Origin: a virus
Taxonomy: Duplodnaviria; Heunggongvirae; Uroviricota; Caudoviricetes
IMG/VR virus record: IMGVR_UViG_2531839178_000011
Coordinates: 1-11,238 of that record
Reading direction: 5' to 3' (one strand)
Length of the DNA stretch: 11,238 nucleotides
Position 1 is the first letter of the stretch; every line of letters begins with the position of its first letter. Below the pieces are notes generated by a model, which did not search any database, had not been told where the DNA came from, and saw only the letters and a program-made list of their open reading frames with translations. Both the position numbers and the translations under genes were made by a program. Below, piece by piece: positions 1-11,238 of this stretch.

Positions 1-75
1 CCCCATCAGCGACGTCTTGTGAAAATTGTCCTGTCTGGCAACAATCGCGCCCATCTATATTGATGGACACGAACG

Positions 76-750
76 ATGAATTCCCAGGCAACAAAAGATA
101 TTCCCTGCTTCCGTTCTTATTTGCCTGATGCCCTGCGTTTAAGATTTGAAGATAAACTGACCATCCGGGCCATCGCTCAGCGTCTGGGTCTCAGTCATTC
201 CACAATACATACGCTTCTTCAGCGATTTCTTGCATCCGGTATCGCATGGCCATTGCCCGATTCAGTTTCATTCGCTCAACTTGACGCCATCCTTTATGCC
301 AACAGAAAGAAGGAATTAACAGAGCCTCAAATCAGAGAAGGCTCATGGCGAAAAGAACGGCGAACCAGCTATAGCCGTGAATTTAAGGTCCGTCTGGCTA
401 AGCAGGCGTTACAGCCTGGGGCTGTTGTTGCCCGGATCGCCAGAGAACACGATATCAATGATAACCTGCTGTTTAAATGGAAAAGCCAGTACGAGGACGG
501 CTTACTGAGCGATGATGACATACAGGAATGCATGCCTGTCCCGGTGGCACTGACTGATACGCCGGAGCCGACCAGACCAGTTACAAATCCCTTCTGGCGT
601 AACAAGCATGATGAGCGCCCTGAGGGGGCTCCCGGAAACGTCCCACGGTGCGAGCTGCATCTTAAATCAGGTGTGGTAAAACTGTTTGACCCTCTCACTC
701 CGGAACTGTTACGGGCGCTAATCCGCGAAATGAAAGGGGGTATCCGATGA
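76..750 (+). CDS. tnpA: IS66-family accessory protein (TnpA/orf1-like), 224 aa with two helix-turn-helix-like segments
   Basis: The C-terminal half (RRTSYSREFKVRLAKQ...VARIAREHDINDNLLFKWKSQY) is an insertion-sequence orfA-type helix-turn-helix. The stop overlaps the next start as ATGA (747-750). The protein is longer than I expect for IS66 orf1, so the true start may be downstream of 76. Confidence 0.75.
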   Translation: MNSQATKDIPCFRSYLPDALRLRFEDKLTIRAIAQRLGLSHSTIHTLLQRFLASGIAWPLPDSVSFAQLDAILYANRKKELTEPQIREGSWRKERRTSYSREFKVRLAKQALQPGAVVARIAREHDINDNLLFKWKSQYEDGLLSDDDIQECMPVPVALTDTPEPTRPVTNPFWRNKHDERPEGAPGNVPRCELHLKSGVVKLFDPLTPELLRALIREMKGGIR

Positions 751-1094
751 TAACGCTGCCGACCGGTACCAGAATCTGGATCATCGCTGGCATCACAGAT
801 ATGCGTTGTGGCTTCAATGGCCTGGCTTCGAAGGTGCAGAACACGCTGAAAGATGACCCGTTCTCCGGGCATATCTTCGTCTTCCGGGGCCGCAGTGGCA
901 AAATGGTGAAAATACTGTGGGCCGATCGTGACGGGTTATGCCTGTTCGCCAAACGCCTGGAACGGGGCCGCTTCGTCTGGCCGGTGACCCGGGAAGGGAA
1001 AGTGCACCTGACGCCAGCTCAGTTATCCATGCTACTGGAGGGGATCGCGTGGCAACATCCCAAACGGACAGAACGGCCTGGCATCCGGATATAA
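747..1094 (+). CDS. tnpB: IS66-family Orf2 (TnpB of IS66; unrelated to the IS200/IS605 TnpB nuclease)
   Basis: 115 aa, MITLPTGTRIWIIAGITDMRCGFNGLA...LWADRDGLCLFAKRLERGRFVWP, a typical IS66 orf2 length and sequence pattern. Translationally coupled to the upstream ORF by an ATGA overlap. Confidence 0.9.
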   Translation: MITLPTGTRIWIIAGITDMRCGFNGLASKVQNTLKDDPFSGHIFVFRGRSGKMVKILWADRDGLCLFAKRLERGRFVWPVTREGKVHLTPAQLSMLLEGIAWQHPKRTERPGIRI

Positions 1095-1113
1095 CCCGTG
1101 ATAAAACAAGGGA

Positions 1114-2715
1114 ATGAACAATGAACTCCCCGATGATATTGAGCTGCTTAAAGCCATGTTGCGTAAGCAACAGAGTCGGCTTCGACAGTATGCCTGTCAG
1201 GTCGCGGGCTATGAGCAGGAAATTGAACGGCTGAAAGCGCAACTCGACAGGTTGCGTCGTATGTTGTTCGGCCAGAGTTCAGAGAAAAAGCGTCATAAGC
1301 TTGAAAATCAGATCCGACAGGCAGAAAAACGACTGTCGGAACTGGAAAACCGGCTGAACACAGCCAGAAATCTTCTGGAAGATGCATCGTCAGTCACAGA
1401 TTCACCTGACACCAGTCCCCCGTCAGAAAACCCGATCGCCAGTAAGCCTGAATCCCCGGGACGAAAATCTTCACGAAAACCGCTGCCGGCAGAACTTCCC
1501 CGGGAGACACATCGCCTTCTGCCTGCTGAAACCAGTTGCCCGGCCTGTGGAGGTGTTCTGAAAGAAATGGGGGAAACAATCTCAGAGCAACTGGATATCA
1601 TTAATACCGCCTTTAAAGTTATCGAAACCATACGTCCCAAACTGGCCTGTAGCCGGTGTGATGTCATCGTTCAGGCACCACTTCCCCCTAAACCGATCGA
1701 ACGCGGTTATGCCAGTGCAGGGTTACTTGCACGGATCCTGGTCAGCAAATATATGGAACATATCCCTTTATATCGCCAGTCAGAAATATACGCGCGACAG
1801 GGCGTGGAGCTGAGCCGTAATACCATGGTGCGCTGGGTATCAGAAATGGCAGACAAACTCCGTCCTCTGTATATAGCGCTGAATGACTATGTTCTGGAGG
1901 CAGGAAAGGTGCACGCAGATGACACTCCGGTGAAAGTACTGGCCCCGGGGAACGGAAAGACGAAAACGGGTCGTCTGTGGGTATACGTCAGGGATGATCG
2001 TAATGCGGGTTCATCCCTGCCGGCAGCCGTCTGGTTCGCGTATTCGGCAGATCGCAAAGGAGAACATCCGCAGCTCCACCTGGCAAAGTATCAGGGCGTA
2101 CTGCAGGCTGATGCCTATGCAGGTTATAACGTACTGTACGAAACGGGCCGGGTGAAGGAAGCCGGGTGCCTGGCCCACGCCCGCCGAAAAATCCATGACG
2201 AGGATGTGCGCCGTCCGACAGAAATGACTCAGGAAGCGCTCAGACGGATAGCAGAGTTATACGACATAGAAGCGGAGATACGTGGCAGTCCGGCAGAGGA
2301 ACGGCTTGCAGTCAGAAAAGCCAGAAGCGTCCAGTTGATGCAGTCGTTGTACGACTGGATACAGTTGCAGAGGAAAACGCTGTCGAAACATGCGGAGATG
2401 GCGAAGGCGTTCGACTATATCCTGAATCACTGGAATGCGCTGAACGAGTTCTGTCGTGACGGCTGGGTGGAAATAGACAACAACATCGGTGAAAACGCGT
2501 TACGATCGGTGGCGGTTGGAAGAAAAAATTATCTCTTTTTCGGCTCAGACAAGGGAGGAGAAAGTGCGGCGATCATCTACAGTCTGCTGGTCACCTGCAA
2601 ACAGAACGAAGTGGAGCCGGAGGACTGGTTGCGCGAAGTGATCGAGAAGCTCAATGACTGGCCGTCGAACCAAGTGCATGAACTGCTGCCCTGGAACTTC
2701 TCGTCTGTAAAATAA
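1114..2715 (+). CDS. tnpC: IS66-family transposase (TnpC/orf3)
   Basis: 533 aa with an N-terminal coiled-coil/leucine-zipper region ([14 protein letters not shown]...[12 protein letters not shown]) and CxxC...CxxC zinc-finger-like motifs (CPACGG...CSRCD), followed by a large catalytic domain. It sits 20 bp after orf2 and is preceded by AAGGGAATGAACAATG. Confidence 0.92.
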
Positions 2716-2730
2716 TCCTTACGCTACGTA

Positions 2731-2747
2731 CTTCTCGGGGCGCTTAC
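2731..2747. repeat. Right terminal sequence of the IS66-family element (inverted-repeat end ...GCGCTTAC)
   Basis: CTTCTCGGGGCGCTTAC lies 16 bp after the tnpC stop. Its reverse complement begins GTAAGCGCCCCGAGAAG. The full extent of the repeat cannot be set without the left end. Confidence 0.5.
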
Positions 2748-2748
2748 T

Positions 2749-3054
2749 GAAAAAGCAGAAACCAAAGGCGCGAAAGCCGCAAAGAACAGCGCTGCACAGG
2801 AAAACCCGGCACCGCTGGCAGACGTTATTGTGGCTGACGGTCAGGCGAATGAACCACGTCCGGCTGAAGACCCGGTTGCTGTACAGGGTGACGCCCCTGT
2901 CCGGCTGAACGTCAGGGCCGTGTCTGAAAACGGGTTCTGGCGCTGTGGCCGTTTCTGGTCACATATCGGTGAGGATGTGGCGGTGAGCGCTGCGGTTGCC
3001 ACCCGCCTGATGGCAGAGCCGAATCTGATTGTCCGGGAAGCGGAGAAAGGCTGA
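2749..3054 (+). pseudogene. 3' fragment of a phage head-region gene, apparently 5'-truncated by the IS66-family insertion
   Basis: Frame 1 is open from the IS terminus to the TGA at 3052-3054 and reads ...AKAAKNSAAQENPAPLADVIVADGQANEPRPAEDPVAVQGDAPVRLNVRAVSENGFWRCGRFWSHIG...EAEKG. The first in-frame start is a GTG at 2830 with no convincing Shine-Dalgarno. Its position directly upstream of the gp36-like gene suggests a Mu gp35-type head-associated protein, but the family is not confidently recognised. Confidence 0.5.
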
Positions 3055-3176
3055 TGGGATACATCACGCAGGAAGACCTGTTACGCGCGGACGGCAGAGC
3101 CGAATCTGATTGTCCGGGAAGCGGAGAAAGGCTGATGGGATACATCACGCAGGAAGACCTGTTACGCGCGGACGGC
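3015..3176. repeat. Perfect tandem direct duplication, 2 x 81 bp (3015-3095 and 3096-3176)
   Basis: The two 81-bp units are identical base for base and are bounded by GGCA microhomology at 3012-3015, 3093-3096 and 3174-3177. Each unit carries the upstream gene's TGA, a GGAGAAAGG Shine-Dalgarno and the ATG plus first 14 codons of the next gene. Confidence 0.95.
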
Positions 3177-3572
3177 AATCTTGTCTGGAACATGGCGATT
3201 AACCGGGAAACCAACGGGCTGGATGAAGACAAAATCCGTCAGGCCATCAGTGATGCGGAAGCGGAAATTGATTCGTTTCTGTCCCGCCGCTACCAGCTGC
3301 CGCTGGGGGTGACGGAAATCCCGCGCCCGCTGCAACGCGTGGCGGTATCGCTGGCGTTTTACTGGTTATCAGAGCGTGACAATCAAATCACGGAGCTGAT
3401 CCAGAAACGCTACGACGACGCCATTAAAACCCTGCGTGAAATGGCGAACGGCACCCGTGACCTGGGCCTGCCGACGTATGCCACCCCGGCAGAAACCGAC
3501 AACGGGAAAATTATTGTGGTGGGTGCCAATGCCCGGCTGTTCACCCGTAACAACCTGAAAGGGGTGCTGTGA
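3054..3572 (+). CDS. Mu gp36-like phage protein (DUF1320-type), with a 27-aa N-terminal duplication if translated from the first ATG
   Basis: MGYITQEDLLRADG...AISDAEAEIDSFLSRRYQLPL...KRYDDAIKTLREMANGTRDLG matches the Mu gp36 family pattern as I recall it. The second in-frame ATG at 3135, with an identical Shine-Dalgarno, would give the native-length protein. The stop overlaps the next start as ATGA. Confidence 0.8.
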   Translation: MGYITQEDLLRADGRAESDCPGSGERLMGYITQEDLLRADGNLVWNMAINRETNGLDEDKIRQAISDAEAEIDSFLSRRYQLPLGVTEIPRPLQRVAVSLAFYWLSERDNQITELIQKRYDDAIKTLREMANGTRDLGLPTYATPAETDNGKIIVVGANARLFTRNNLKGVL

Positions 3573-4114
3573 TGGGGATTTCTGTACAGGTCAGCGGTGA
3601 CCAGCGTCTGGAGGATATCCGCCGCGCCGTTGAAAAGCTGGCAGAGGGTTCATTGCAGTCAGAGCTGCTGGAAAGCATCGGTGCGGTGGTGGAATCACAG
3701 ACCCGCCGCCGCATCATCGATGAGAAAACCAGTCCGGGTGGCGAACGCTGGCCGGACTGGTCTGACGGGTACAAAAAGACCCGCCACGGCAACCAGAGTC
3801 TGCTGCGCGGTGAAGGCCATCTGCTGGAGAGTATCCAGTACATCGTGGAAAACCGCGTGGTGCGTATCGGTTCACCGCTGGATTATGCCCGCATCATGAA
3901 TGACGGCTTTTCCGGCAGCGTGCCGGTCAGCGCCCACAAACGGCTTATCTCGCAGTGTTTCGGGCGGGCGCTGAAATATCCGGTCTGGCAGACCGTCGGC
4001 GCACATCACCGCATGATGAACATTCCGCAACGTGAATTTCTGGGGCTGTCTTCTGCCAGCCAGCAGGAGCTGCAACAGGTTATCAGTCATTTCTGGAAGG
4101 AGGTTCTGCCATGA
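3569..4114 (+). CDS. Phage virion morphogenesis / tail completion protein (Mu G / P2 S-like family)
   Basis: 181 aa; the segment ...GERWPDWSDGYKKTRHGNQSLLRGEGHLLESIQYIVENRVVRIGSPLDYARIMNDGF is characteristic of this family. ATGA overlaps at both ends. Confidence 0.8.
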   Translation: MMGISVQVSGDQRLEDIRRAVEKLAEGSLQSELLESIGAVVESQTRRRIIDEKTSPGGERWPDWSDGYKKTRHGNQSLLRGEGHLLESIQYIVENRVVRIGSPLDYARIMNDGFSGSVPVSAHKRLISQCFGRALKYPVWQTVGAHHRMMNIPQREFLGLSSASQQELQQVISHFWKEVLP

Positions 4115-4722: not shown

Positions 4723-4888
4723 GCCAGCGCGGGAAAACGTCCGTGTCCGTAAACCGGATGGCGCACATTTATCCCCGGAAGGGGAACGTCTCAACGTCTG
4801 CGCTTACTGGCTGCGCCGTGAAGCCGAGGGAGATGTGGAAATAACCACACTTCCGAAAAATAACAACAAAACCAGAGGGAAAAAATAA
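4688..4888 (+). CDS. Mu gp38-like small phage protein (DUF2635-type)
   Basis: Small ORF immediately before the sheath gene, with its stop overlapping the sheath start (TAATG). An alternative start at ATG 4703 (MEQKLIKPAREN...) has a better GGGGTGA Shine-Dalgarno-like sequence and may be the real start. Confidence 0.55.
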   Translation: MYGVTMEQKLIKPARENVRVRKPDGAHLSPEGERLNVCAYWLRREAEGDVEITTLPKNNNKTRGKK

Positions 4889-6361
4889 TGTCGCTGGGTT
4901 CCATTCCTGATGATATCCGCGTCCCGCTTGTCTGGATCGATATCGACAATTCACAGGCGCTGGAGGGTGCATCCGCGCAAAGCCGAAAAATTCTGGTCAT
5001 GGGCCATGCGGTATCGTCCGGCAGCGCAGACGCCCTGTCACTGACCCGTATCACCAGTGACAGCCAGGCAGACCAGCTTTATGGCAAAGGGTCGATGCTG
5101 GCTGAAATGCTCAAAATGCTGCGTCGTGCCAACACGTACACGGAAACCTGGGCGATGCCGGTTGCCGCTCCTGAAGGCGCTGCCGCAAAAGCCACGCTGA
5201 CCGTGCTGGGTACAGCGACCGAAGCCGGAACGGTGGCACTGCTGATTAACGGTGTGTCCGTTCAGGTGAGCGTGAGCGCCGGGGATACGAAGGAAAACAT
5301 TGCAAAAGCCATTGCTGATGCGGTGACGAAAAAGCCTGCCACGCAGGTGGCCGCTGCGGTGAAGGATGATGCCACGGATACCGTGGAGCTGACCGTGAAC
5401 TGGCACGGCGTCACCGGCAACGGTGCCGACGTTCGCCTGAACTACCACACCGGTGAAGCCTTCCCGGCAGGTGTGAAGGTGACCGCAACCGCGTTTACCG
5501 GCGGCACCGGGACACCGGAAATGGCAGACGCCGTTGCGGCCATCGGCCCGGAGTGGTTTACCGATATCATCGCCCCGTTCACCGACACGAAAAGCCTGAA
5601 CACCCTGCGTGATGAACTGCTGAACCGCTGGGGGCCGCTCAAAATGATGGAAGCGCAGCTGTGGACGGCGTTTTGTGGCACGCACGGGGAAACCGGCACG
5701 TTTGGTGAAACCCGCAATGACTGGCTGATTAGCTGCATCGGCACCAACCTGTCGCCGCATCCGGCGTGGATGTGGGCCGCGTCATACGGCGCAACGGCAG
5801 CGTATCACCTTGCCATTGACCCGGCGCGTCCGCTTCAGACGCTGGTCCTGACCGGCATTCTGCCGCCTGCGCGTAATGTTCGCTGGGATATGGGAACGTA
5901 ACCTGCTGCTGCATGACGGCATTGCCACGCACATGGTGGACGCCGGGGATAACGTCTGCATCGAGCGTGAAATCACCATGTACCGGGTTAACCAGTACGG
6001 TGATGCGGATGTGTCGTATCTTGATGTGCAGTCACCCGCCACGCTGGGCCGTATCCGTTACATCATTAAAAACCGTTTCTCGAACCGTTATCCGCGCCAC
6101 AAGCTGGCGGATGATGACGTGCTGGACTCGCTGGATGCGGGGCAGCCGGTGATGACGCCGAAGCTGTGCACTGCAGAGCTGCTGGATATCTGCCAGACCG
6201 AACTTCTCCCGGCGGGCCTTGTGGAAAACTTCAGCGATTACAGGGACACGCTTCAGGTGACACGCGACAGCAGCGATAAAAACCGCCTGAACTTTATCTG
6301 CCACCCGAATCTGGTGAACCAGTTGCGTGTGCTGGCAGGCCTGATTCAGTTCAAGCTTTAA
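4888..6361 (+). pseudogene. Phage contractile tail sheath protein (Mu L-like), reading frame broken once
   Basis: Frame 1 (4888-5901, 337 aa) and frame 2 (open from 5852 to 6361) together give about 490 aa, a full-length sheath. The switch must lie in 5852-5898. The start is preceded by AGAGGGAAAAAATA. This may be a real mutation or a sequence error. Confidence 0.8.
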
Positions 6362-6370
6362 GGGGGCCAC

Positions 6371-6727
6371 ATGGCAAAAATTCTTGGCATGGCGACCATT
6401 CGCGTGAATGGCCGCGAAATTAAAACCGAGGGGAAATCCACGCTGAATCCGGGCGGCTTCAGCCGCACCCAGCATATGGGCGGCGGCAAGGTCTGGGGTA
6501 TCTCCAGCAAGATGGCCTCGCCGTCCATCAAGGTAACCATTGCGGCGGCAGCGGATATGGACGTGATTGAAATCAGCAACTGGGAAGATGTCACGGTGAT
6601 GTTCTACGGCGACAACGGCCTGAACTACATGATGACGGGTTCCGCCACGGATAACCCGGCAGAGCTGGACGAGGATTCCGGCACCATCAGTGCCAACTTT
6701 ATCGGTGAAAAATGCGTGAAGGTGTGA
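6371..6727 (+). CDS. Phage tail tube protein (Mu M-like)
   Basis: 118 aa, directly downstream of the sheath gene, with a Shine-Dalgarno AAGGGGG before the ATG. Size and position match a contractile-tail tube protein. Confidence 0.8.
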   Translation: MAKILGMATIRVNGREIKTEGKSTLNPGGFSRTQHMGGGKVWGISSKMASPSIKVTIAAAADMDVIEISNWEDVTVMFYGDNGLNYMMTGSATDNPAELDEDSGTISANFIGEKCVKV

Positions 6728-6728
6728 C

Positions 6729-7124
6729 ATGGCCGCAATGGAATTTGAACTGAAACACGGGCTTCTGACCGGCAAAGGCACGGCAGATGAAACCCTGCAT
6801 AAAACCGTGAAACTGCGCGAACTGACCGCCAGTGATGTGATTGATGCGCAACTGGCCGCAGAACGCGTCGTCATGGGCGGGAACGGAAAGGCGGTGGCCT
6901 ACTGTTCTGAGGTGCTGATGGGACTGGAGATGATGCGCCGTCAGGTTGCGTCAATCGGTAATATCCCCGGCCCGCTGGACATGAAACAGCTGCGAATGCT
7001 CCACCCGGCAGACCTTGAGCTTATCAGCACGAAAGCGGCTGTGCTGGATGACATGCTTGAGGAGGTGGCAACGCGGGGGCGAACTGATGCCGCTGGCGTC
7101 GGCACTGATGAACCTGCTGGTTAA
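6729..7124 (+). CDS. Phage tail assembly chaperone (Mu gp41-like)
   Basis: 131 aa between the tube and tape measure genes, the conserved position of the tail assembly chaperone. An overlapping +1-frame extension is annotated separately. Confidence 0.65.
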   Translation: MAAMEFELKHGLLTGKGTADETLHKTVKLRELTASDVIDAQLAAERVVMGGNGKAVAYCSEVLMGLEMMRRQVASIGNIPGPLDMKQLRMLHPADLELISTKAAVLDDMLEEVATRGRTDAAGVGTDEPAG

Positions 7125-7224
7125 CCTGTCTTCGCGATTCAGCATTCAGTACCTGGAACAGCTGCCCCTGCGGCAGTTGTTCCGCCTGATAAAGCAACTG
7201 GAGAAACAGCATGGCAACAGGTAA
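6985..7224 (+). other. Out-of-frame (+1) extension ORF overlapping the chaperone 3' end; candidate translational frameshift product
   Basis: Frame 1 is open from 6985 to 7224 and overlaps the tape measure start at 7211. Its distal part (ELMPLASALMNLLVNLSSRFSIQYLEQLPLRQLFRLIKQLEKQ) looks like real protein, while the chaperone's frame-3 tail (RGRTDAAGVGTDEPAG) looks degenerate. The -1 frame is full of stops. Confidence 0.4.
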
Positions 7225-8953
7225 CCGTCTCAGCACGGAAATCATGATCAACCTTGCCGGGAACCTGACCGCCAAAGCCCGGCAGTACGGTGCAAACATG
7301 TCGCAGTTCGCCCGGAACAACCAGAAGGCCATGCGCCTGGTCAAAGCCACAACGGAGGCTGCCGGGCGCAGTCTGGATGCGCTTGGCAACCGCTACACGG
7401 CGATGATTGCCGGGTTCGGTGGTGGTATGACCCTTAAAGGCCTGACAGATTTTGATGCGCAAATCCGCCGTGCGGGTACAAATGCAAAACTGACCGATGA
7501 GCAGGTATCCCGTTTAAGAAAAAACATCCGGGAAACCGCCAGAATGTCAGACATTCGCCTCAGTGCCCAGGTCTTACTGGAAGGCCAGGATGCACTGTAT
7601 GGCCTGACCGGTAAGCCGGAATTTGTTGAAAAAAACATCCGCAATCAGGGGCTGGCCACGCAGGCATTCGGGACTGCGCCACAGGATGCCGCGGCACTGA
7701 TGGCACAGATGTCCGAAAAACAGATTGAAGCGCCTCAGGAGGTTGAAGGCATGTTCGACCGCTTCTACCACCAGTTTTCCATTGGTTCGGTTGGTGTGGA
7801 TCAACTGGCGCGTGTATCAGCAAAACTGTTTTCGATTTATACCGGTGGTGGCAAAGAGGCGATGGCCCAGTTGGGGGCACTTGAACAGATGCTGGCAAAA
7901 ACAACCGGCTCTGCGGATGAAGCGGTGACCGCGCTGAACAGTATCTGGAGTGAAGTCACCCGAAAAGACAATATCAAGTTTCTGAAAAGAAACGGGGTTG
8001 ATGTGCTTGATCCTGTCACAGGAAAACCCCGTCTGCCTTATGACGTAATCAGAGACGTTGTCAGGCGGGCAAAATTTAATGAGCAGAACTTGCAGGATGT
8101 TTTCGGGGATACTTCCATGCGTGGATTAAGGGCACTGCTCAGTGAAGACGCCCTTCAGCTAACAGAAAAAATGATTTACGCCCCGGTTGAATCCGGTGCC
8201 ATGAGAAAAGCTGCGGAGAAAAACGCCCGGAGTTTTCAGTCTGCGATGCAGTCCCTGAAGAATGAATATGAGGTTTTTGCTGAAAAAAATCTGGCAAAAC
8301 CCGTTCAGGACCTGGCGGATGCCATCAACAGCGTGGACCAGAACTGGTTGCAGGTCGGTAAATATATGGCAATTGCGCTGGGTGGCATTATCGCCGTACG
8401 TAAGACGTACAAGCTCGGTAAAACCATCCACGACATCATGAATCCCAAAGGGAAAGGCAAAGGGATACCCGGCAGCGTGGCAGACGGCAACCCCGGCTTT
8501 GCCATCGGGCTGTCACCGGATTATCAGCCGGTATCTGACAGCCTGCAAAAGAACATTGACGACTTCCGCCAAGTGGTTGTGCTGGGAGCCCTGCTGGGAC
8601 AGGCCAGTGCCGTGGCCTCGATGACGTTCGATACCCGTGATGCGGCGTTATCTGCCGGTGACACGCTGGCGGCTGAACTGCATGAGCAGGCGGTGGCGGC
8701 GGTGGAAAACAACCAGCGGACATTGTGGCGAACGCTGCGCGATTTACGGCAGGCCGTGATTACGGATGCCCGCGAGCGTGCCGCCCGTCTGCCGGAAACC
8801 CGGCAGGTGACGCTGACCACAACCACCTCTGCCGCATTGCTGGCATGGCGCGAGCATGGTGACACACGCCGACGGGATGAAATCGTGCAGCGTAACCGCC
8901 TGCGTCATCCGTCATTCATCCTGCCGACGCAACCTGTGGAGATCACCGACTGA
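7211..8953 (+). CDS. Phage tail tape measure protein
   Basis: 580 aa, the largest ORF, immediately after the chaperone/frameshift region. It is helical and Ala/Gln/Leu-rich with a hydrophobic segment (YMAIALGGIIAVRKTYKLG). Shine-Dalgarno GGAGAAACA before the ATG; its stop overlaps the next start (TGATG). Confidence 0.8.
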   Translation: MATGNRLSTEIMINLAGNLTAKARQYGANMSQFARNNQKAMRLVKATTEAAGRSLDALGNRYTAMIAGFGGGMTLKGLTDFDAQIRRAGTNAKLTDEQVSRLRKNIRETARMSDIRLSAQVLLEGQDALYGLTGKPEFVEKNIRNQGLATQAFGTAPQDAAALMAQMSEKQIEAPQEVEGMFDRFYHQFSIGSVGVDQLARVSAKLFSIYTGGGKEAMAQLGALEQMLAKTTGSADEAVTALNSIWSEVTRKDNIKFLKRNGVDVLDPVTGKPRLPYDVIRDVVRRAKFNEQNLQDVFGDTSMRGLRALLSEDALQLTEKMIYAPVESGAMRKAAEKNARSFQSAMQSLKNEYEVFAEKNLAKPVQDLADAINSVDQNWLQVGKYMAIALGGIIAVRKTYKLGKTIHDIMNPKGKGKGIPGSVADGNPGFAIGLSPDYQPVSDSLQKNIDDFRQVVVLGALLGQASAVASMTFDTRDAALSAGDTLAAELHEQAVAAVENNQRTLWRTLRDLRQAVITDARERAARLPETRQVTLTTTTSAALLAWREHGDTRRRDEIVQRNRLRHPSFILPTQPVEITD

Positions 8954-10055
8954 TGGAATCCGTGATTCTTACCGTTGACGGCAAACTGTGGGAAGGCTGG
9001 ACGGAAATGTCCGTCAGCCGTTCCCTGAAGGCGATTGCCGGTGAGTTTGAACTCAGTGTGACAACCCGCTGGTCAGCGGCGGCACCGCGCGTGATTCGTG
9101 AGGGGCAACCCTGCACGGTCAGGCTGGGCGCGGATACCGTGCTGACGGGGTATATCGATGATTTTATTCCCGGCTATGAGGCTGAAAACGTGGAGATTCG
9201 CGTCATGGGGCGCGATAAAACCGGCGACCTGGTGGACTGCTCTGTGGTGCATTCGTCCGGGAAATGGAAAGGCGTGCGGCTTGAACAGGTGGCGGCTGAT
9301 GTCTGCCGCCCGTTCGGGATAACCGTCATCACGGAAACCCCGACCGGGGAGGCATTTGCGTCTGTCGTTCTGGAACAGGGTGAAACGGGCTTTGAACTGC
9401 TCGACCGGCTGGCAAAACAGCGCGGCGTTCTGCTGACGTCTGACGGCGCGGGTAACCTGATTATCACCCGCGCCTCTTCCGTTCGCGCGGGCGTGTCACT
9501 GGTGCTGGGAAAAATATCCTCGCCGCCCGTGGGCGCTTCAGCTGGCGGGAGCGTAACAGCCAGTACATCATCAAGGGCACCACCAGTGCCCGTGGCAAAC
9601 TGTGGGACAGCCAGCCTGCCCCGATGGTGGGCGGTCGCCAGTACATCACCGAAGCCCCGGAAATTAACCGTTACCGCCCGCGCATTCTGGTCAATGAAGA
9701 CAGCCTGACCGTGGGCGGGGCCAGCATTCGCGGGGAATGGTACAAAGCCCGGATGCTGGGAGAGTCCCGCACGACGGAAATCACGGTGGCAGGCTGGCGC
9801 GAACAGGGCGACAGCGGCCCGCTGTGGCAGACCAACCGCCTTGTCGATATCGACGACAGCATTCAGAACCTGAAAACCACCTGGCTGATATCCGGGGTGA
9901 CATGGACGGATGGCGCACAGGGGAGGATGACGGTTCTGGCGCTGGTTCCGCCTGAATCACTGGACATGCCGGAAATGAAAGCGAAGACGAAAAAACAAAG
10001 GCGGTGGCCACATGGGATTAAACGCAATTGCCCGCCGCCTGCGACTGATGGTTGA
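8953..10055 (+). pseudogene. Phage baseplate hub / tail protein D (P2 gpD / Mu P-like), reading frame broken at an A5 run
   Basis: Frame 1 (8953 to about 9510) and frame 3 (open from 9456 to 10055) join into one protein of about 367 aa (...ITRASSVRAGVSLVLGK/NILAARGRFSWRERNSQYIIKG...). The junction is the A5 run at 9510-9514; one more A restores the frame. This may be a real mutation or a homopolymer sequence error. Confidence 0.8.
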
Positions 10056-10548
10056 CCGCGCTGTTGTCCGCCTGGTGTCTGACGGTCTGGCACGGCAGAA
10101 CCTGCAAATTCAGACGCTGGCAGATGCCACCGATGACGACGTGGAACGCTTCCAGAACTACGGGTTTACGTCCGTTCCGCCGGAAGGTTCTGAAGCCATT
10201 GTGATGGCCGTTGGCGGACGGCGTGACGGGCTGGTTGCCATCGCGGTGGAAGACAAGCGATGTCGCCCGAAAGGACTGTCCCCCGGCGATGTCAGGGTGT
10301 ATCACCGGGACGGCAAATCACACATCACCCTGAAGGAAAACGGCGTCATTGAAATCACAGGAGAACAATTAGACTTTTCAGGGAAAACGGTAAATCTCAC
10401 TGCCGACGAACTGCTGAATATTATCGGTAAACAAATGAAATTCGTCGGTCCCTGTGAATTCACTGAAGATGTCAGAATCAAGGGTAAATCATTCAGCGAA
10501 CACATTCATAAGGACGGCGACAATGAGAATACATCACCGCCCGTATGA
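10012..10548 (+). CDS. Phage baseplate assembly protein V / spike-like protein (Mu gp45-like)
   Basis: 178 aa, preceded by AAAGGCGG. Position after the hub gene and size fit the V/spike family. It overlaps the hub ORF's 3' end by 44 nt. Confidence 0.75.
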   Translation: MGLNAIARRLRLMVDRAVVRLVSDGLARQNLQIQTLADATDDDVERFQNYGFTSVPPEGSEAIVMAVGGRRDGLVAIAVEDKRCRPKGLSPGDVRVYHRDGKSHITLKENGVIEITGEQLDFSGKTVNLTADELLNIIGKQMKFVGPCEFTEDVRIKGKSFSEHIHKDGDNENTSPPV

Positions 10549-10997
10549 CGACAGAAATCCGCTGGAATAACATGCTCTCACGGGGTGACATCACCGTCAC
10601 CCATAACGGCCTCTCACGGGATGAGGGGCTGGTCACTCAGGTTCTTATCTGCCTTTTCACCGATGCCCGCGCTGATGACGATGATGTCATTCCTGACGGC
10701 TCCGGCGACCCGCGCGGCTGGCCGGGCGACACGTACAGCGATTTTTCGTGGGGTTCCCGCCTGTGGCTGCTTGAGCGTGAAAAGCTGACGGAAGATGTCC
10801 GCCTGCGCGTGGAAGATTACGCGCGGCTGTCCATGCAGCCGCTTCTGCGTGCCGGTTACGCCCGTAACGCCACCGTCACGGCCAGCATCATCATTCCTGA
10901 CCGTATTGCCTTTCTGGTGGTGTTAACCCGCCCGGACAAAACCACACTCAGAATCGAAATCACCCGTCGATGGGAGGCCACCATTAATGCCGTATGA
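10545..10997 (+). CDS. Mu gp46-like baseplate protein (GP46 / gp25-W-like)
   Basis: 150 aa, ATGA-coupled to the upstream gene, in the position of gp46 in Mu-like baseplate modules. Confidence 0.7.
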   Translation: MTTEIRWNNMLSRGDITVTHNGLSRDEGLVTQVLICLFTDARADDDDVIPDGSGDPRGWPGDTYSDFSWGSRLWLLEREKLTEDVRLRVEDYARLSMQPLLRAGYARNATVTASIIIPDRIAFLVVLTRPDKTTLRIEITRRWEATINAV

Positions 10998-11238
10998 AAT
11001 CCCCACGCTGGGCAAACTGATTGCCGACGGCGAAAAAGATATTGCGTATGAACTCGGCCTGCAAAAGCTGCCGCCTGTCAGTGTTGAGCAGGCGCTGAAC
11101 GTGTCATTCAGCAGTCAGGTCCGGGATTTATACGACCATCAGAGCTGGATTAAGGACCAGATAATCCCGTCCACCACGTCTGATGATGAAACCATTATCA
11201 AAACAGCAAAGTATGAAGGCGTTATCCGCAAGCAGGCC
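10987..11238 (+). CDS. Baseplate J-like protein (Mu gp47-like), 5' part only; continues past the window end
   Basis: ATG at 10987, with frame 1 open for 84 codons to the window edge (MPYEIPTLGKLIADGEKDIAYELGLQKLPPVSVEQALN...). It overlaps the gp46-like stop by 11 nt and sits in the expected position of the J-like baseplate wedge gene. Confidence 0.7.
   Translation, partial: MPYEIPTLGKLIADGEKDIAYELGLQKLPPVSVEQALNVSFSSQVRDLYDHQSWIKDQIIPSTTSDDETIIKTAKYEGVIRKQA

What the first reader, a model, noticed from the sequence alone, without database searches (positions are those of the whole stretch)
2716..2860. IS66-family element abuts a Mu-like late operon, leaving a head-region gene without its 5' end
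The IS terminus (...GCGCTTAC, 2747) is followed at once by an open frame that runs without a start codon or Shine-Dalgarno into a phage gene ending at 3054. This is what an insertion into, or an IS-mediated deletion of, the phage head module would leave. Portal, protease, capsid and terminase genes are not in the window, so the tail module may be separated from its head genes.
Basis: partly seen in the sequence, partly recalled or inferred. Interest (0 to 1): 0.45.

Follow-up and report, generated by a model that had tools for sequence, protein, structure and literature searches.

The report
IS-truncated Mu-like prophage remnant in Shigella
An ISSfl3 insertion sequence marks the point where about 19 kb of a Mu-like prophage, including all its head genes, was deleted in a Shigella boydii lineage, which is ordinary IS-driven prophage decay.

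Summary
The window is a whole Shigella boydii draft contig. It begins 7 nt inside a 2754-bp ISSfl3 (IS66 family) element, whose right end (…GGGGCGCTTAC) is at 2747. The next base is nt 6 of a conserved 103-aa gene. In intact Mu-like prophages this gene lies between the major head gene gpT and the gp36 adaptor gene. All homologues start MSEK…, so the GTG at 2830 is internal codon 30, not the natural start.

The same junction occurs in 13 contigs, three of them chromosome-scale. In four of them that span the IS, the left flank carries no TGAAAAAG duplication and no head genes. The least-rearranged relative reads: T6SS gene | 208 bp of prophage left end | ISSfl3 | truncated gene … tail genes … com, mom, right end | rest of the T6SS gene. 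This is an IS-associated internal deletion of about 18.7 kb. It removed the repressor, transposase, Mor, lysis, terminase, portal, protease and capsid genes.

The closest chromosome-scale relative has zero mismatches over 8.5 kb of phage DNA and a further-rearranged left flank. The tail genes are decaying: sheath and baseplate-hub genes are frameshifted.

This is a known process and of low interest.

The parts
1..2747 (+). ISSfl3 (IS66 family), lacking only its first 7 nt (GTAAGCG) because the contig starts there. The full element is 2754 bp.
   Evidence: 99.7-99.9% identical to copies annotated 'IS66-like element ISSfl3 family transposase'. Ends defined on L003.
76..750 (+). tnpA (224 aa), IS66 accessory protein
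   Evidence: NCBIfam NF038385 IS66_access_TnpA, E=7e-85.
747..1094 (+). tnpB (115 aa), IS66 accessory protein
   Evidence: Pfam PF05717 TnpB_IS66.
1114..2715 (+). tnpC (533 aa), IS66-family DDE transposase. Its stop TAA at 2713-2715 is in the same frame as the phage gene remnant.
   Evidence: NCBIfam NF033517 transpos_IS66, E=5e-140; frame.
2737..2747 (+). Right terminal inverted repeat GGGGCGCTTAC of ISSfl3
   Evidence: Perfect 11-nt complement of the left end GTAAGCGCCCC in the full copy L003.
2748..3054 (+). Remnant (nt 6-312) of a 103-aa conserved Mu-like head-region gene (phrog_10420, function unknown; Mu gp35 position). It has lost its ATG, ribosome-binding site and upstream operon.
   Evidence: 100% identical to L001 6001-6307; the intact CDS is L001 5996-6307. 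Homologues all start MSEK. phrog_10420 aligns over residues 1-103.
2830..3054 (+). 74-aa ORF called by annotators, starting at GTG. It is codon 30 onward of the real gene, not a natural start.
   Evidence: Named 'MULTISPECIES: hypothetical protein [Shigella]' on 13 contigs.
3012..3177 (+). Perfect 81-bp tandem duplication (2.0 copies) spanning the stop/start overlap of the truncated gene and the gp36 gene. Unique to this contig.
   Evidence: TRF period 81, 100% match. Absent from L005-L008 and from the intact prophages L001 and L002. The resulting 172-aa protein is seen on this one contig only.
3135..3572 (+). gp36-family head-tail adaptor gene (145 aa from its native start; 172 aa if read from the duplicated ATG at 3054)
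   Evidence: PF07030 Phage_Mu_Gp36; phrog_195 head-tail adaptor, E=6e-47.
3569..4114 (+). Tail completion / virion morphogenesis gene
   Evidence: PF05069; phrog_26.
4888..6361 (+). Tail sheath pseudogene. A 2-bp (CC) deletion at 5892/5893 splits it into 337-aa and 161-aa ORFs.
   Evidence: Intact gene is 491 aa in L001 and L014. The indel was located and is shared only with PSSP01000001.1 (L007).
7211..8953 (+). In-frame fusion of the tape-measure gene and the DNA-circularisation gene, caused by a 1376-bp deletion at 8467/8468 between CCCGGC direct repeats
   Evidence: Relatives have 614-aa and 424-aa genes here.
8953..10055 (+). gp44/gpP baseplate-hub pseudogene, with 1-nt losses in A-runs at 9509/9510 and 9989/9990
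   Evidence: Intact gene is 356 aa in L014. It is truncated to 251 aa in L006, L007 and L008 and 278 aa in L005.
10012..11238 (+). gp45, gp46 and the start of the gp47 baseplate genes, running to the contig end
   Evidence: PF06890 and PF07409.

Best explanation
The window is the left edge of a defunct Mu-like (transposable) prophage remnant in Shigella boydii.

Proposed history:
- A roughly 35-kb Mu-like phage transposed into a T6SS-cluster gene.
- An ISSfl3 (IS66-family) element entered the phage.
- An ISSfl3-associated deletion then removed everything between nt ~209 of the phage left end and nt 5 of the 103-aa gene that follows the major head gene gpT. The deletion arose either by recombination between two directly oriented ISSfl3 copies or by intramolecular transposition of one copy.
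- One ISSfl3 now sits at the deletion joint.

The deleted segment is about 18.7 kb in the coordinates of an intact relative. It held the repressor, ner-like gene, MuA and MuB transposase genes, gam, mor, lysis genes, terminase, portal, gpF, protease/scaffold and the major head gene.

What remains is a start-less 3' part of the 103-aa gene, the adaptor, tail and baseplate genes, com-mom and the right end.

The remnant cannot make heads, transpose, lyse cells or activate its own late promoters, and it is accumulating frameshifts. In the closest chromosome-scale relative of the source strain the IS left flank has since been exchanged again by a further IS-mediated rearrangement.

Shown: the junction, the truncation, the absence of a target duplication, the flank identities and the retained left end. 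Inferred: the order of events and which of the two deletion mechanisms acted.
For: 1. Junction. Homology to intact prophages starts exactly at 2748, 5 nt after their ATG.

2. True start. All homologues from E. coli and Salmonella begin MSEK, with E3, K4, T7, K8, K11, K14, N15, E20, P22, L25, A26 and D27 invariant. The phrog_10420 profile covers residues 1-103.

3. Intact context. 45 E. coli genomes have gpT, this gene and gp36 contiguous. Terminase, portal, gpF, protease and gpT lie directly upstream.

4. Same junction elsewhere. It occurs in 13 Shigella contigs.

5. Left flanks. They read ...GGCTCTAAAT|GTAAGCG in CP026836.1, CP027027.1 and UYIS01000006.1, and ...GCAGTCACT|GTAAGCG in PSSP01000001.1. 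No TGAAAAAG duplication is present.

6. Retained left end. In UYIS01000006.1 the 208 bp left of the IS start TATGACTAGGTAATTTATTCAAGATAACC. That is the terminus of the intact prophage in CP065615.1. The segment carries the same TTCAAGATA repeats, in inverted orientation, as the right end.

7. Chromosomal flanks. T6SS DNA flanks both sides. Against an uninterrupted cluster (E. coli S10) the left flank ends at L024:12004 and the right flank starts at 12001. The event is therefore internal to the prophage and is a deletion, not an inversion.

8. Decay. There is a sheath frameshift, gp44 frameshifts and a tape-measure/circularisation fusion.

9. Background. IS-mediated gene disruption, deletion and rearrangement are described as hallmarks of Shigella genomes (PMC7373316).
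Against: The source contig stops 7 nt inside the IS, so its own left flank is unseen.

The closest chromosome-scale relative, PSSP01000001.1, has 0 mismatches over 8.5 kb of phage DNA. It carries a different left flank: a fragment of another IS66-like element, then IS4, then uppS-cdsA-rseP-bamA. I could not scan that genome for a relocated left-end/ISSfl3 junction or for head genes elsewhere.

Beyond nt 76 the retained 208-bp left end is not homologous to the intact E. coli relative. The size of the deleted segment is therefore an estimate from a related phage, not the parental one.

The two deletion mechanisms cannot be told apart from the sequence.
Confidence: 0.85

Rival explanations
1. Simple ISSfl3 insertion into the 103-aa gene. 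The first 13 nt of the gene and the whole head module would lie immediately across the IS, flanked by the 8-bp duplication TGAAAAAG, and the prophage would otherwise be complete.
For: ISSfl3 does make 8-bp duplications (GGGAAGTC around the copy in L003). The source contig does not show its own left flank.
Against: All four related contigs that span the IS lack TGAAAAAG on the left and have no head genes within 7 kb upstream. This includes one with 0 mismatches to the window across 8.5 kb of phage DNA. In three of them the left neighbour is the prophage's own left end.
Confidence: 0.03
2. IS-IS recombination inverted or translocated the head and early half of the prophage rather than deleting it, so the head genes persist elsewhere in the chromosome.
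For: Two different left flanks exist among genomes with the identical right junction. At least one ISSfl3-mediated rearrangement therefore occurred after the founding event. Shigella genomes carry many ISSfl3 copies.
Against: In UYIS01000006.1, CP026836.1 and CP027027.1 the IS is flanked by the prophage left end on one side and the truncated gene on the other, in the same orientation. T6SS DNA lies on both outer sides. That is the signature of a deletion. The different flank in PSSP01000001.1 is IS debris, not phage DNA.
Confidence: 0.08
3. The gene naturally starts at GTG 2830 and the IS sits in an intergenic site, so nothing is interrupted.
For: Annotators call a 74-aa ORF from this GTG.
Against: Homologues are 101-113 aa and all start MSEK. 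The 29 residues before V30 are conserved at protein level. Intact prophages annotate the 103-aa CDS. There is no Shine-Dalgarno-like sequence before 2830 (sequence).
Confidence: 0.01
4. The IS-phage junction is an assembly chimera produced at a collapsed repeat in a draft genome.
For: The window is a 2012-era draft contig that starts inside a multicopy IS. It also carries two structural oddities, the 81-bp duplication and the 1376-bp deletion, seen in no other assembly.
Against: The identical junction is present in 12 other contigs from independent assemblies, three of chromosome size.
Confidence: 0.01

Closest known systems
ISSfl3 (IS66 family; ISfinder name as used in RefSeq annotation)
   Same: 99.7-99.9% DNA identity over 2747 bp. 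It has the tnpA-tnpB-tnpC organisation, the GTAAGCGCCCC terminal repeats, and an 8-bp duplication in a reference copy.
   Different: In the relatives, this copy has no flanking target duplication because it sits at a deletion or recombination joint.
Mu-like (transposable) prophages of E. coli, Shigella and Salmonella, e.g. the ~35-kb prophage of E. coli FDAARGOS_943 (CP065615.1, about 338.1-372.8 kb)
   Same: 98-100% identical from the truncated gene to the tape-measure gene. The late-gene order is the same: gpT, 103-aa gene, gp36, tail completion, sheath, tube, gp41, TMP, N, gp44-48, fibres, com, mom.
   Different: The remnant lacks about 18.7 kb (early region, lysis and head genes), and its tail genes carry frameshifts.
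IS-driven genome degradation in Shigella (Hawkey et al. 2020, PMC7373316)
   Same: An IS interrupts a gene and is associated with deletion and rearrangement between IS copies. The neighbourhood also holds nested IS4, ISSfl7 and IS630-family insertions.
   Different: That paper concentrates on IS1, IS2, IS4, IS600 and IS911 and on metabolic genes. Neither 'IS66' nor 'prophage' occurs in its main text.
Phage Mu gp35 / Haemophilus FluMu HI1506 (position-equivalent small gene between the major head gene and gp36)
   Same: Same gene position. Some RefSeq records name the intact 103-aa homologue 'HI1506-related protein'.
   Different: Homology was not confirmed here. There was no Pfam, NCBIfam or PDB sequence hit, and the AlphaFold model was too poor for a fold search.

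Membership tests
IS66 family / ISSfl3 | Three consecutive genes tnpA, tnpB and tnpC (DDE transposase) | tested here: met
   ORFs at 76-750, 747-1094 and 1114-2715. NF038385 E=7e-85; PF05717; NF033517 E=5e-140.
IS66 family / ISSfl3 | Terminal inverted repeats starting GTAAGCG | tested here: met
   The right end GGGGCGCTTAC is at 2737-2747. The left end GTAAGCGCCCC is seen in the full copies L003, L005, L006, L007 and L013. The window lacks the first 7 nt.
IS66 family / ISSfl3 | 8-bp target-site duplication | tested here: not met
   Met for the reference copy L003 (GGGAAGTC). For this copy in relatives the left 8-mers are CTCTAAAT or CAGTCACT against TGAAAAAG on the right. This is the expected result for a copy at a deletion or recombination joint and does not argue against IS identity.
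IS66 family / ISSfl3 | Near-identity to the named element | tested here: met
   99.7-99.9% over 2747 bp to copies annotated ISSfl3.
Mu-like transposable prophage | Mu-type late gene order with gpT, gp36, sheath, tube, gp41, gp44-gp48, com and mom | tested here: met
   Pfam hits along the window and relatives.
Mu-like transposable prophage | MuA-type transposase, MuB-like ATPase, Gam and Mor in the early region | tested here: met
   Present in the intact relative CP065615.1. Absent from the remnant because that region is deleted.
Mu-like transposable prophage | Insertion at many different chromosomal sites with a short target duplication | tested here: met
   The eight copies that carry this right end all have a different sequence immediately after it. 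Four bp (AGAA; GAAA) are shared by the left and right flanks in the two copies where both are seen. Mu itself makes 5 bp (own knowledge), so the duplication length differs or the exact terminus is 1 nt off.
IS-mediated deletion joint | A single IS lacking a target duplication, flanked by two non-adjacent parts of the same replicon in conserved orientation | tested here: met
   Prophage nt 1-208 | ISSfl3 | nt 6 of the 103-aa gene onward, with both outer flanks contiguous in an uninterrupted T6SS cluster. This was seen in relatives, not in the source contig itself.
Domesticated tail-only element (tailocin / R-pyocin-like) | Intact sheath, tube and baseplate genes plus their own regulator and lysis cassette | tested here: not met
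   The sheath gene is frameshifted in the window and L007. gp44 is frameshifted in the remnant copies whose gene calls cover it (L005-L008). mor and the lysis genes lie in the deleted segment.

The most novel reading that the evidence does not exclude
The head-less tail cluster is not just debris. It has been retained across S. boydii and S. dysenteriae lineages as a tailocin-like or trans-complementable tail module. Its transcription would come from read-through out of ISSfl3 tnpC, which is in the same orientation and the same frame, with no terminator-like site in between. Alternatively it would be activated in trans by a resident intact Mu-like prophage.
Probability: 0.03. Interest if true: 0.4.

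Novelty: already known. Interest (0 to 1): 0.1.

Why it matters
The practical value is for annotation:
- The 74-aa "hypothetical protein [Shigella]" (MULTISPECIES record) is a 5'-truncated fragment of a 103-aa phage gene and should be marked as a pseudogene.
- The region is a non-inducible prophage remnant. It lacks head, lysis and transposition genes, so it should not be counted as an intact prophage.
- The identical ISSfl3 junction is a shared derived marker for a Shigella boydii / S. dysenteriae sub-lineage.
- The phage landed in a T6SS-cluster gene, which adds one more lesion to that cluster.

None of this changes what is understood about IS66 elements, Mu-like phages or Shigella genome decay.

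Tried and rejected
- **Phage collection searches.** Megablast of 2748-3700 gave only a 74%-identical Klebsiella phage hit downstream of the gene. tblastn of the 103-aa protein gave nothing. No cultured-phage reference exists in that collection.
- **Function of the 103-aa protein.** There was no Pfam, NCBIfam or PDB sequence match. The only hit was phrog_10420, of unknown function. AlphaFold2 with a 14-sequence alignment gave mean pLDDT 54 and pTM 0.30, with a disordered N-terminal half and a small beta/alpha C-terminal part. That is too poor for a meaningful fold search, so none was run. The 'HI1506-related' label used in some RefSeq records could not be verified.
- **Same junction in E. coli.** None of the 5426 complete E. 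coli genomes carries it. It turned up only through the exact-protein look-up of the 74-aa ORF.
- **Literature by accession number.** This gave only the species of CP026836.1, which is S. boydii. Papers mentioning ISSfl3 were irrelevant resistome surveys.
- **Promoter and terminator scan of 2400-3300.** No sigma-70-like site and no plus-strand terminator were found. This is uninformative beyond showing that nothing obvious blocks read-through.
- **Public collection scans.** I did not scan genome contigs or metagenome contigs for the reciprocal junction. GTDB keeps one representative for E. coli plus Shigella (own knowledge), so a negative result would mean nothing.
- **Head genes elsewhere in the Shigella genomes.** I could not check this, because the tools cannot search a named assembly.

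Full report
**What the window is.**
An exact-protein look-up shows the 11,238-bp window is the complete draft contig AKNA01000011.1 of assembly GCA_000268145.1. The one protein unique to it is named "[Shigella boydii]" by NCBI.

**The insertion sequence.**
- Bases 1-2747 are 99.7-99.9% identical to copies annotated "IS66-like element ISSfl3 family transposase".
- They encode tnpA (76-750), tnpB (747-1094) and tnpC (1114-2715), with strong NCBIfam and Pfam matches.
- A complete copy in E. coli FDAARGOS_943 (L003 394-3147, 2754 bp) starts GTAAGCGCCCCATCAGC and ends CTTCTCGGGGCGCTTAC. Its terminal inverted repeat is 11 nt, and it is flanked by the 8-bp duplication GGGAAGTC.
- The window begins at the 8th base of the element.

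**The interrupted gene.**
- Megablast against 5426 complete E. coli genomes gives phage matches that all begin at window position 2748.
- In intact prophages such as E. coli FDAARGOS_943 (L001) and VL40 (L002), the sequence reads ...aaaaggcagagtcATGAG|TGAAAAAGCAGAAACC. A 312-nt CDS (103 aa) is annotated from that ATG.
- The window therefore retains nt 6-312 of the gene at 100% identity. It has lost the ATG, the ribosome-binding region and everything upstream.
- The frame stays open back to 2716 only because IS sequence happens to be open in that frame. The preceding TAA is the tnpC stop, so tnpC and the remnant share a frame.
- A database search found 22 homologues in E. coli and Salmonella. 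The full-length ones are 101-113 aa and all start MSEK, and the 29 residues before the GTG-encoded V30 are conserved.
- The PHROG profile phrog_10420 aligns to residues 1-103.
The 74-aa ORF annotated in Shigella records is an artefact of gene calling on a pseudogene.
- The gene's function is unknown. There was no Pfam, NCBIfam or PDB hit, and the AlphaFold model was poor.
- In intact prophages it lies between the major head gene gpT and the gp36-family head-tail adaptor. Its stop overlaps the adaptor's ATG (TGATG), which suggests translational coupling. That last point is an inference.

**Insertion or deletion?**
Looking up the exact 74-aa ORF found 13 contigs, all of which (among those fetched) carry the identical junction ...GCGCTTAC|TGAAAAAGCAG. 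Three are chromosome-scale: CP026836.1, CP027027.1 and PSSP01000001.1. CP026836.1 is S. boydii according to PMC12817139.

- In the four contigs that span the IS, the 8 bp before the left end are CTCTAAAT (three contigs) or CAGTCACT (one), never TGAAAAAG. No phage head gene lies within 7 kb upstream.
- The draft contig UYIS01000006.1 (L013) shows the least-nested state. A T6SS-cluster gene ends ...CCGTGAGAA, then come 208 bp, then the ISSfl3 left end.
- Those 208 bp begin TATGACTAGGTAATTTATTCAAGATAACC. That is exactly the left terminus of the intact prophage in CP065615.1, where chromosomal DNA stops at ...ctgggaaa|.
- The 208 bp contain several TTCAAGATA motifs. These are the reverse complement of the TATCTTGAA repeats at the prophage right end, which fits transposase-binding sites. 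That reading is an inference.
- Downstream, the remnant runs through the tail, baseplate and fibre genes, com and mom to the right end ...TTTTGCGCGCTTTA. It then continues into the rest of the same T6SS gene and tssM.
- Against an uninterrupted T6SS cluster (E. coli S10, L024), the left chromosomal flank ends at 12004 and the right one starts at 12001.
- The chromosome is therefore intact on both sides, and the loss is internal to the prophage: from nt ~209 to nt 5 of the 103-aa gene.
- In the coordinates of the intact CP065615.1 prophage (about 35 kb) this is about 18.7 kb. It holds the repressor-like gene, an HTH gene, the Mu transposase, an AAA ATPase, gam, mor, the lysis genes, both terminase subunits, the DUF935 portal, the head morphogenesis protein, the protease and gpT.
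The "simple insertion" option is not seen in any relative.

**Later events.**
- CP026836.1 and CP027027.1 carry independent IS630-family and ISSfl7 (IS5-family) insertions 8-10 nt inside the retained left end.
- PSSP01000001.1 is identical to the window at every aligned base of the 8.5 kb of phage DNA and shares its 2-bp sheath frameshift. Its ISSfl3 left flank is instead a fragment of a different IS66-like element, interrupted by IS4 and next to uppS-cdsA-rseP-bamA. Its right prophage flank is still tssM.
- At least one further ISSfl3-mediated rearrangement therefore happened in the lineage closest to the source strain. The source contig's own left flank remains unseen.

**State of the remaining tail genes in the window.**
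- Sheath: a 2-bp deletion at 5892/5893 splits the gene into 337-aa and 161-aa ORFs, against 491 aa intact.
- gp44 baseplate hub: 1-nt losses in A-runs at 9509/9510 and 9989/9990 leave 251 aa, against 356 aa intact.
- Tape-measure and DNA-circularisation genes: fused by a 1376-bp deletion between CCCGGC repeats at 8467/8468.
- An 81-bp perfect tandem duplication lies at 3012-3177.
- The last two are unique to this contig and may be assembly artefacts.
- With mor and the rest of the early and middle region deleted, the late promoters have no cis-encoded activator. This follows from established Mu biology and is an inference.

**Comparison with what is known, and verdict.**
- The element is ISSfl3, and the phage belongs to an annotated Mu-like prophage group present in 48 of 5426 complete E. 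coli genomes.
- IS-driven interruption, deletion and rearrangement is the textbook mode of Shigella genome decay (PMC7373316).
- Nothing here departs from that picture.
- The most novel reading still open is that the tail module is retained or expressed as a tailocin-like unit, perhaps by read-through from tnpC, since no terminator-like site intervenes. The frameshifts in sheath and baseplate genes argue against it, and I give it about 3%.
- Overall: observation confirmed, interpretation supported in its deletion form, novelty "already known", interest low (0.1).

Noticed in passing
window 3012-3177: A perfect 81-bp tandem duplication spans the end of the truncated gene and the start of the gp36 adaptor gene. 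It is in frame and gives a 172-aa gp36 variant with 27 extra N-terminal residues. The variant is seen on this single contig among about 15 billion proteins. The duplication is absent from the otherwise identical PSSP01000001.1, so it may be an assembly artefact.
   Followed up: partly
window 8467/8468 (ORF 7211-8953): A 1376-bp deletion between 6-bp CCCGGC direct repeats fuses the tape-measure gene to the DNA-circularisation gene in frame, giving 580 aa. It is unique to this contig.
   Followed up: partly
window 5892/5893 (sheath) and 9509/9510, 9989/9990 (gp44): Several frameshifts were located. A 2-bp CC loss in the sheath gene is shared only with PSSP01000001.1. There are 1-nt losses in A-runs of the baseplate-hub gene, and gp44 is truncated in the remnant copies whose gene calls cover it, L005-L008.
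   Followed up: yes
window 1 and 11238 (contig ends): The contig begins exactly 7 nt inside the ISSfl3 left end, which is typical of an assembly break at a repeat boundary. Its right end falls inside the gp47 baseplate gene, where relatives have no IS.
   Followed up: partly
L006 6061-7216, L005 5781-7170, L013 843-1086; L024 ~12001-12004: In relatives the Mu-like prophage sits inside a T6SS-cluster gene (KPHS_23130-family protein, just upstream of tssM) and splits it. Only 4 bp (AGAA) are duplicated at the two ends. The intact copy in CP065615.1 likewise shares 4 bp (GAAA), where Mu itself makes 5 bp.
   Followed up: partly
L005 ~5808-7000 and L006 ~6090-7010: Two different IS elements, IS630-family and ISSfl7 (IS5 family), inserted independently within 2 nt of each other in the first 8-10 nt of the prophage left end (TATGACTA|GG). 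This probably reflects their TA and CTAG target preferences.
   Followed up: no
window 2713-2748: The tnpC stop codon TAA is in the same reading frame as the phage gene remnant, and no terminator-like site lies between them. Read-through transcription, or rare stop-codon read-through, could express the remnant as a fusion.
   Followed up: no
L014/L015 (CP065611.1) and L021/L022 (CP065615.1): Two FDA-ARGOS 'E. coli' genomes each carry two copies of this Mu-like prophage at different chromosomal sites, together with many ISSfl3 copies. This suggests the phage is, or recently was, actively transposing in Shigella/EIEC-like backgrounds.
   Followed up: no
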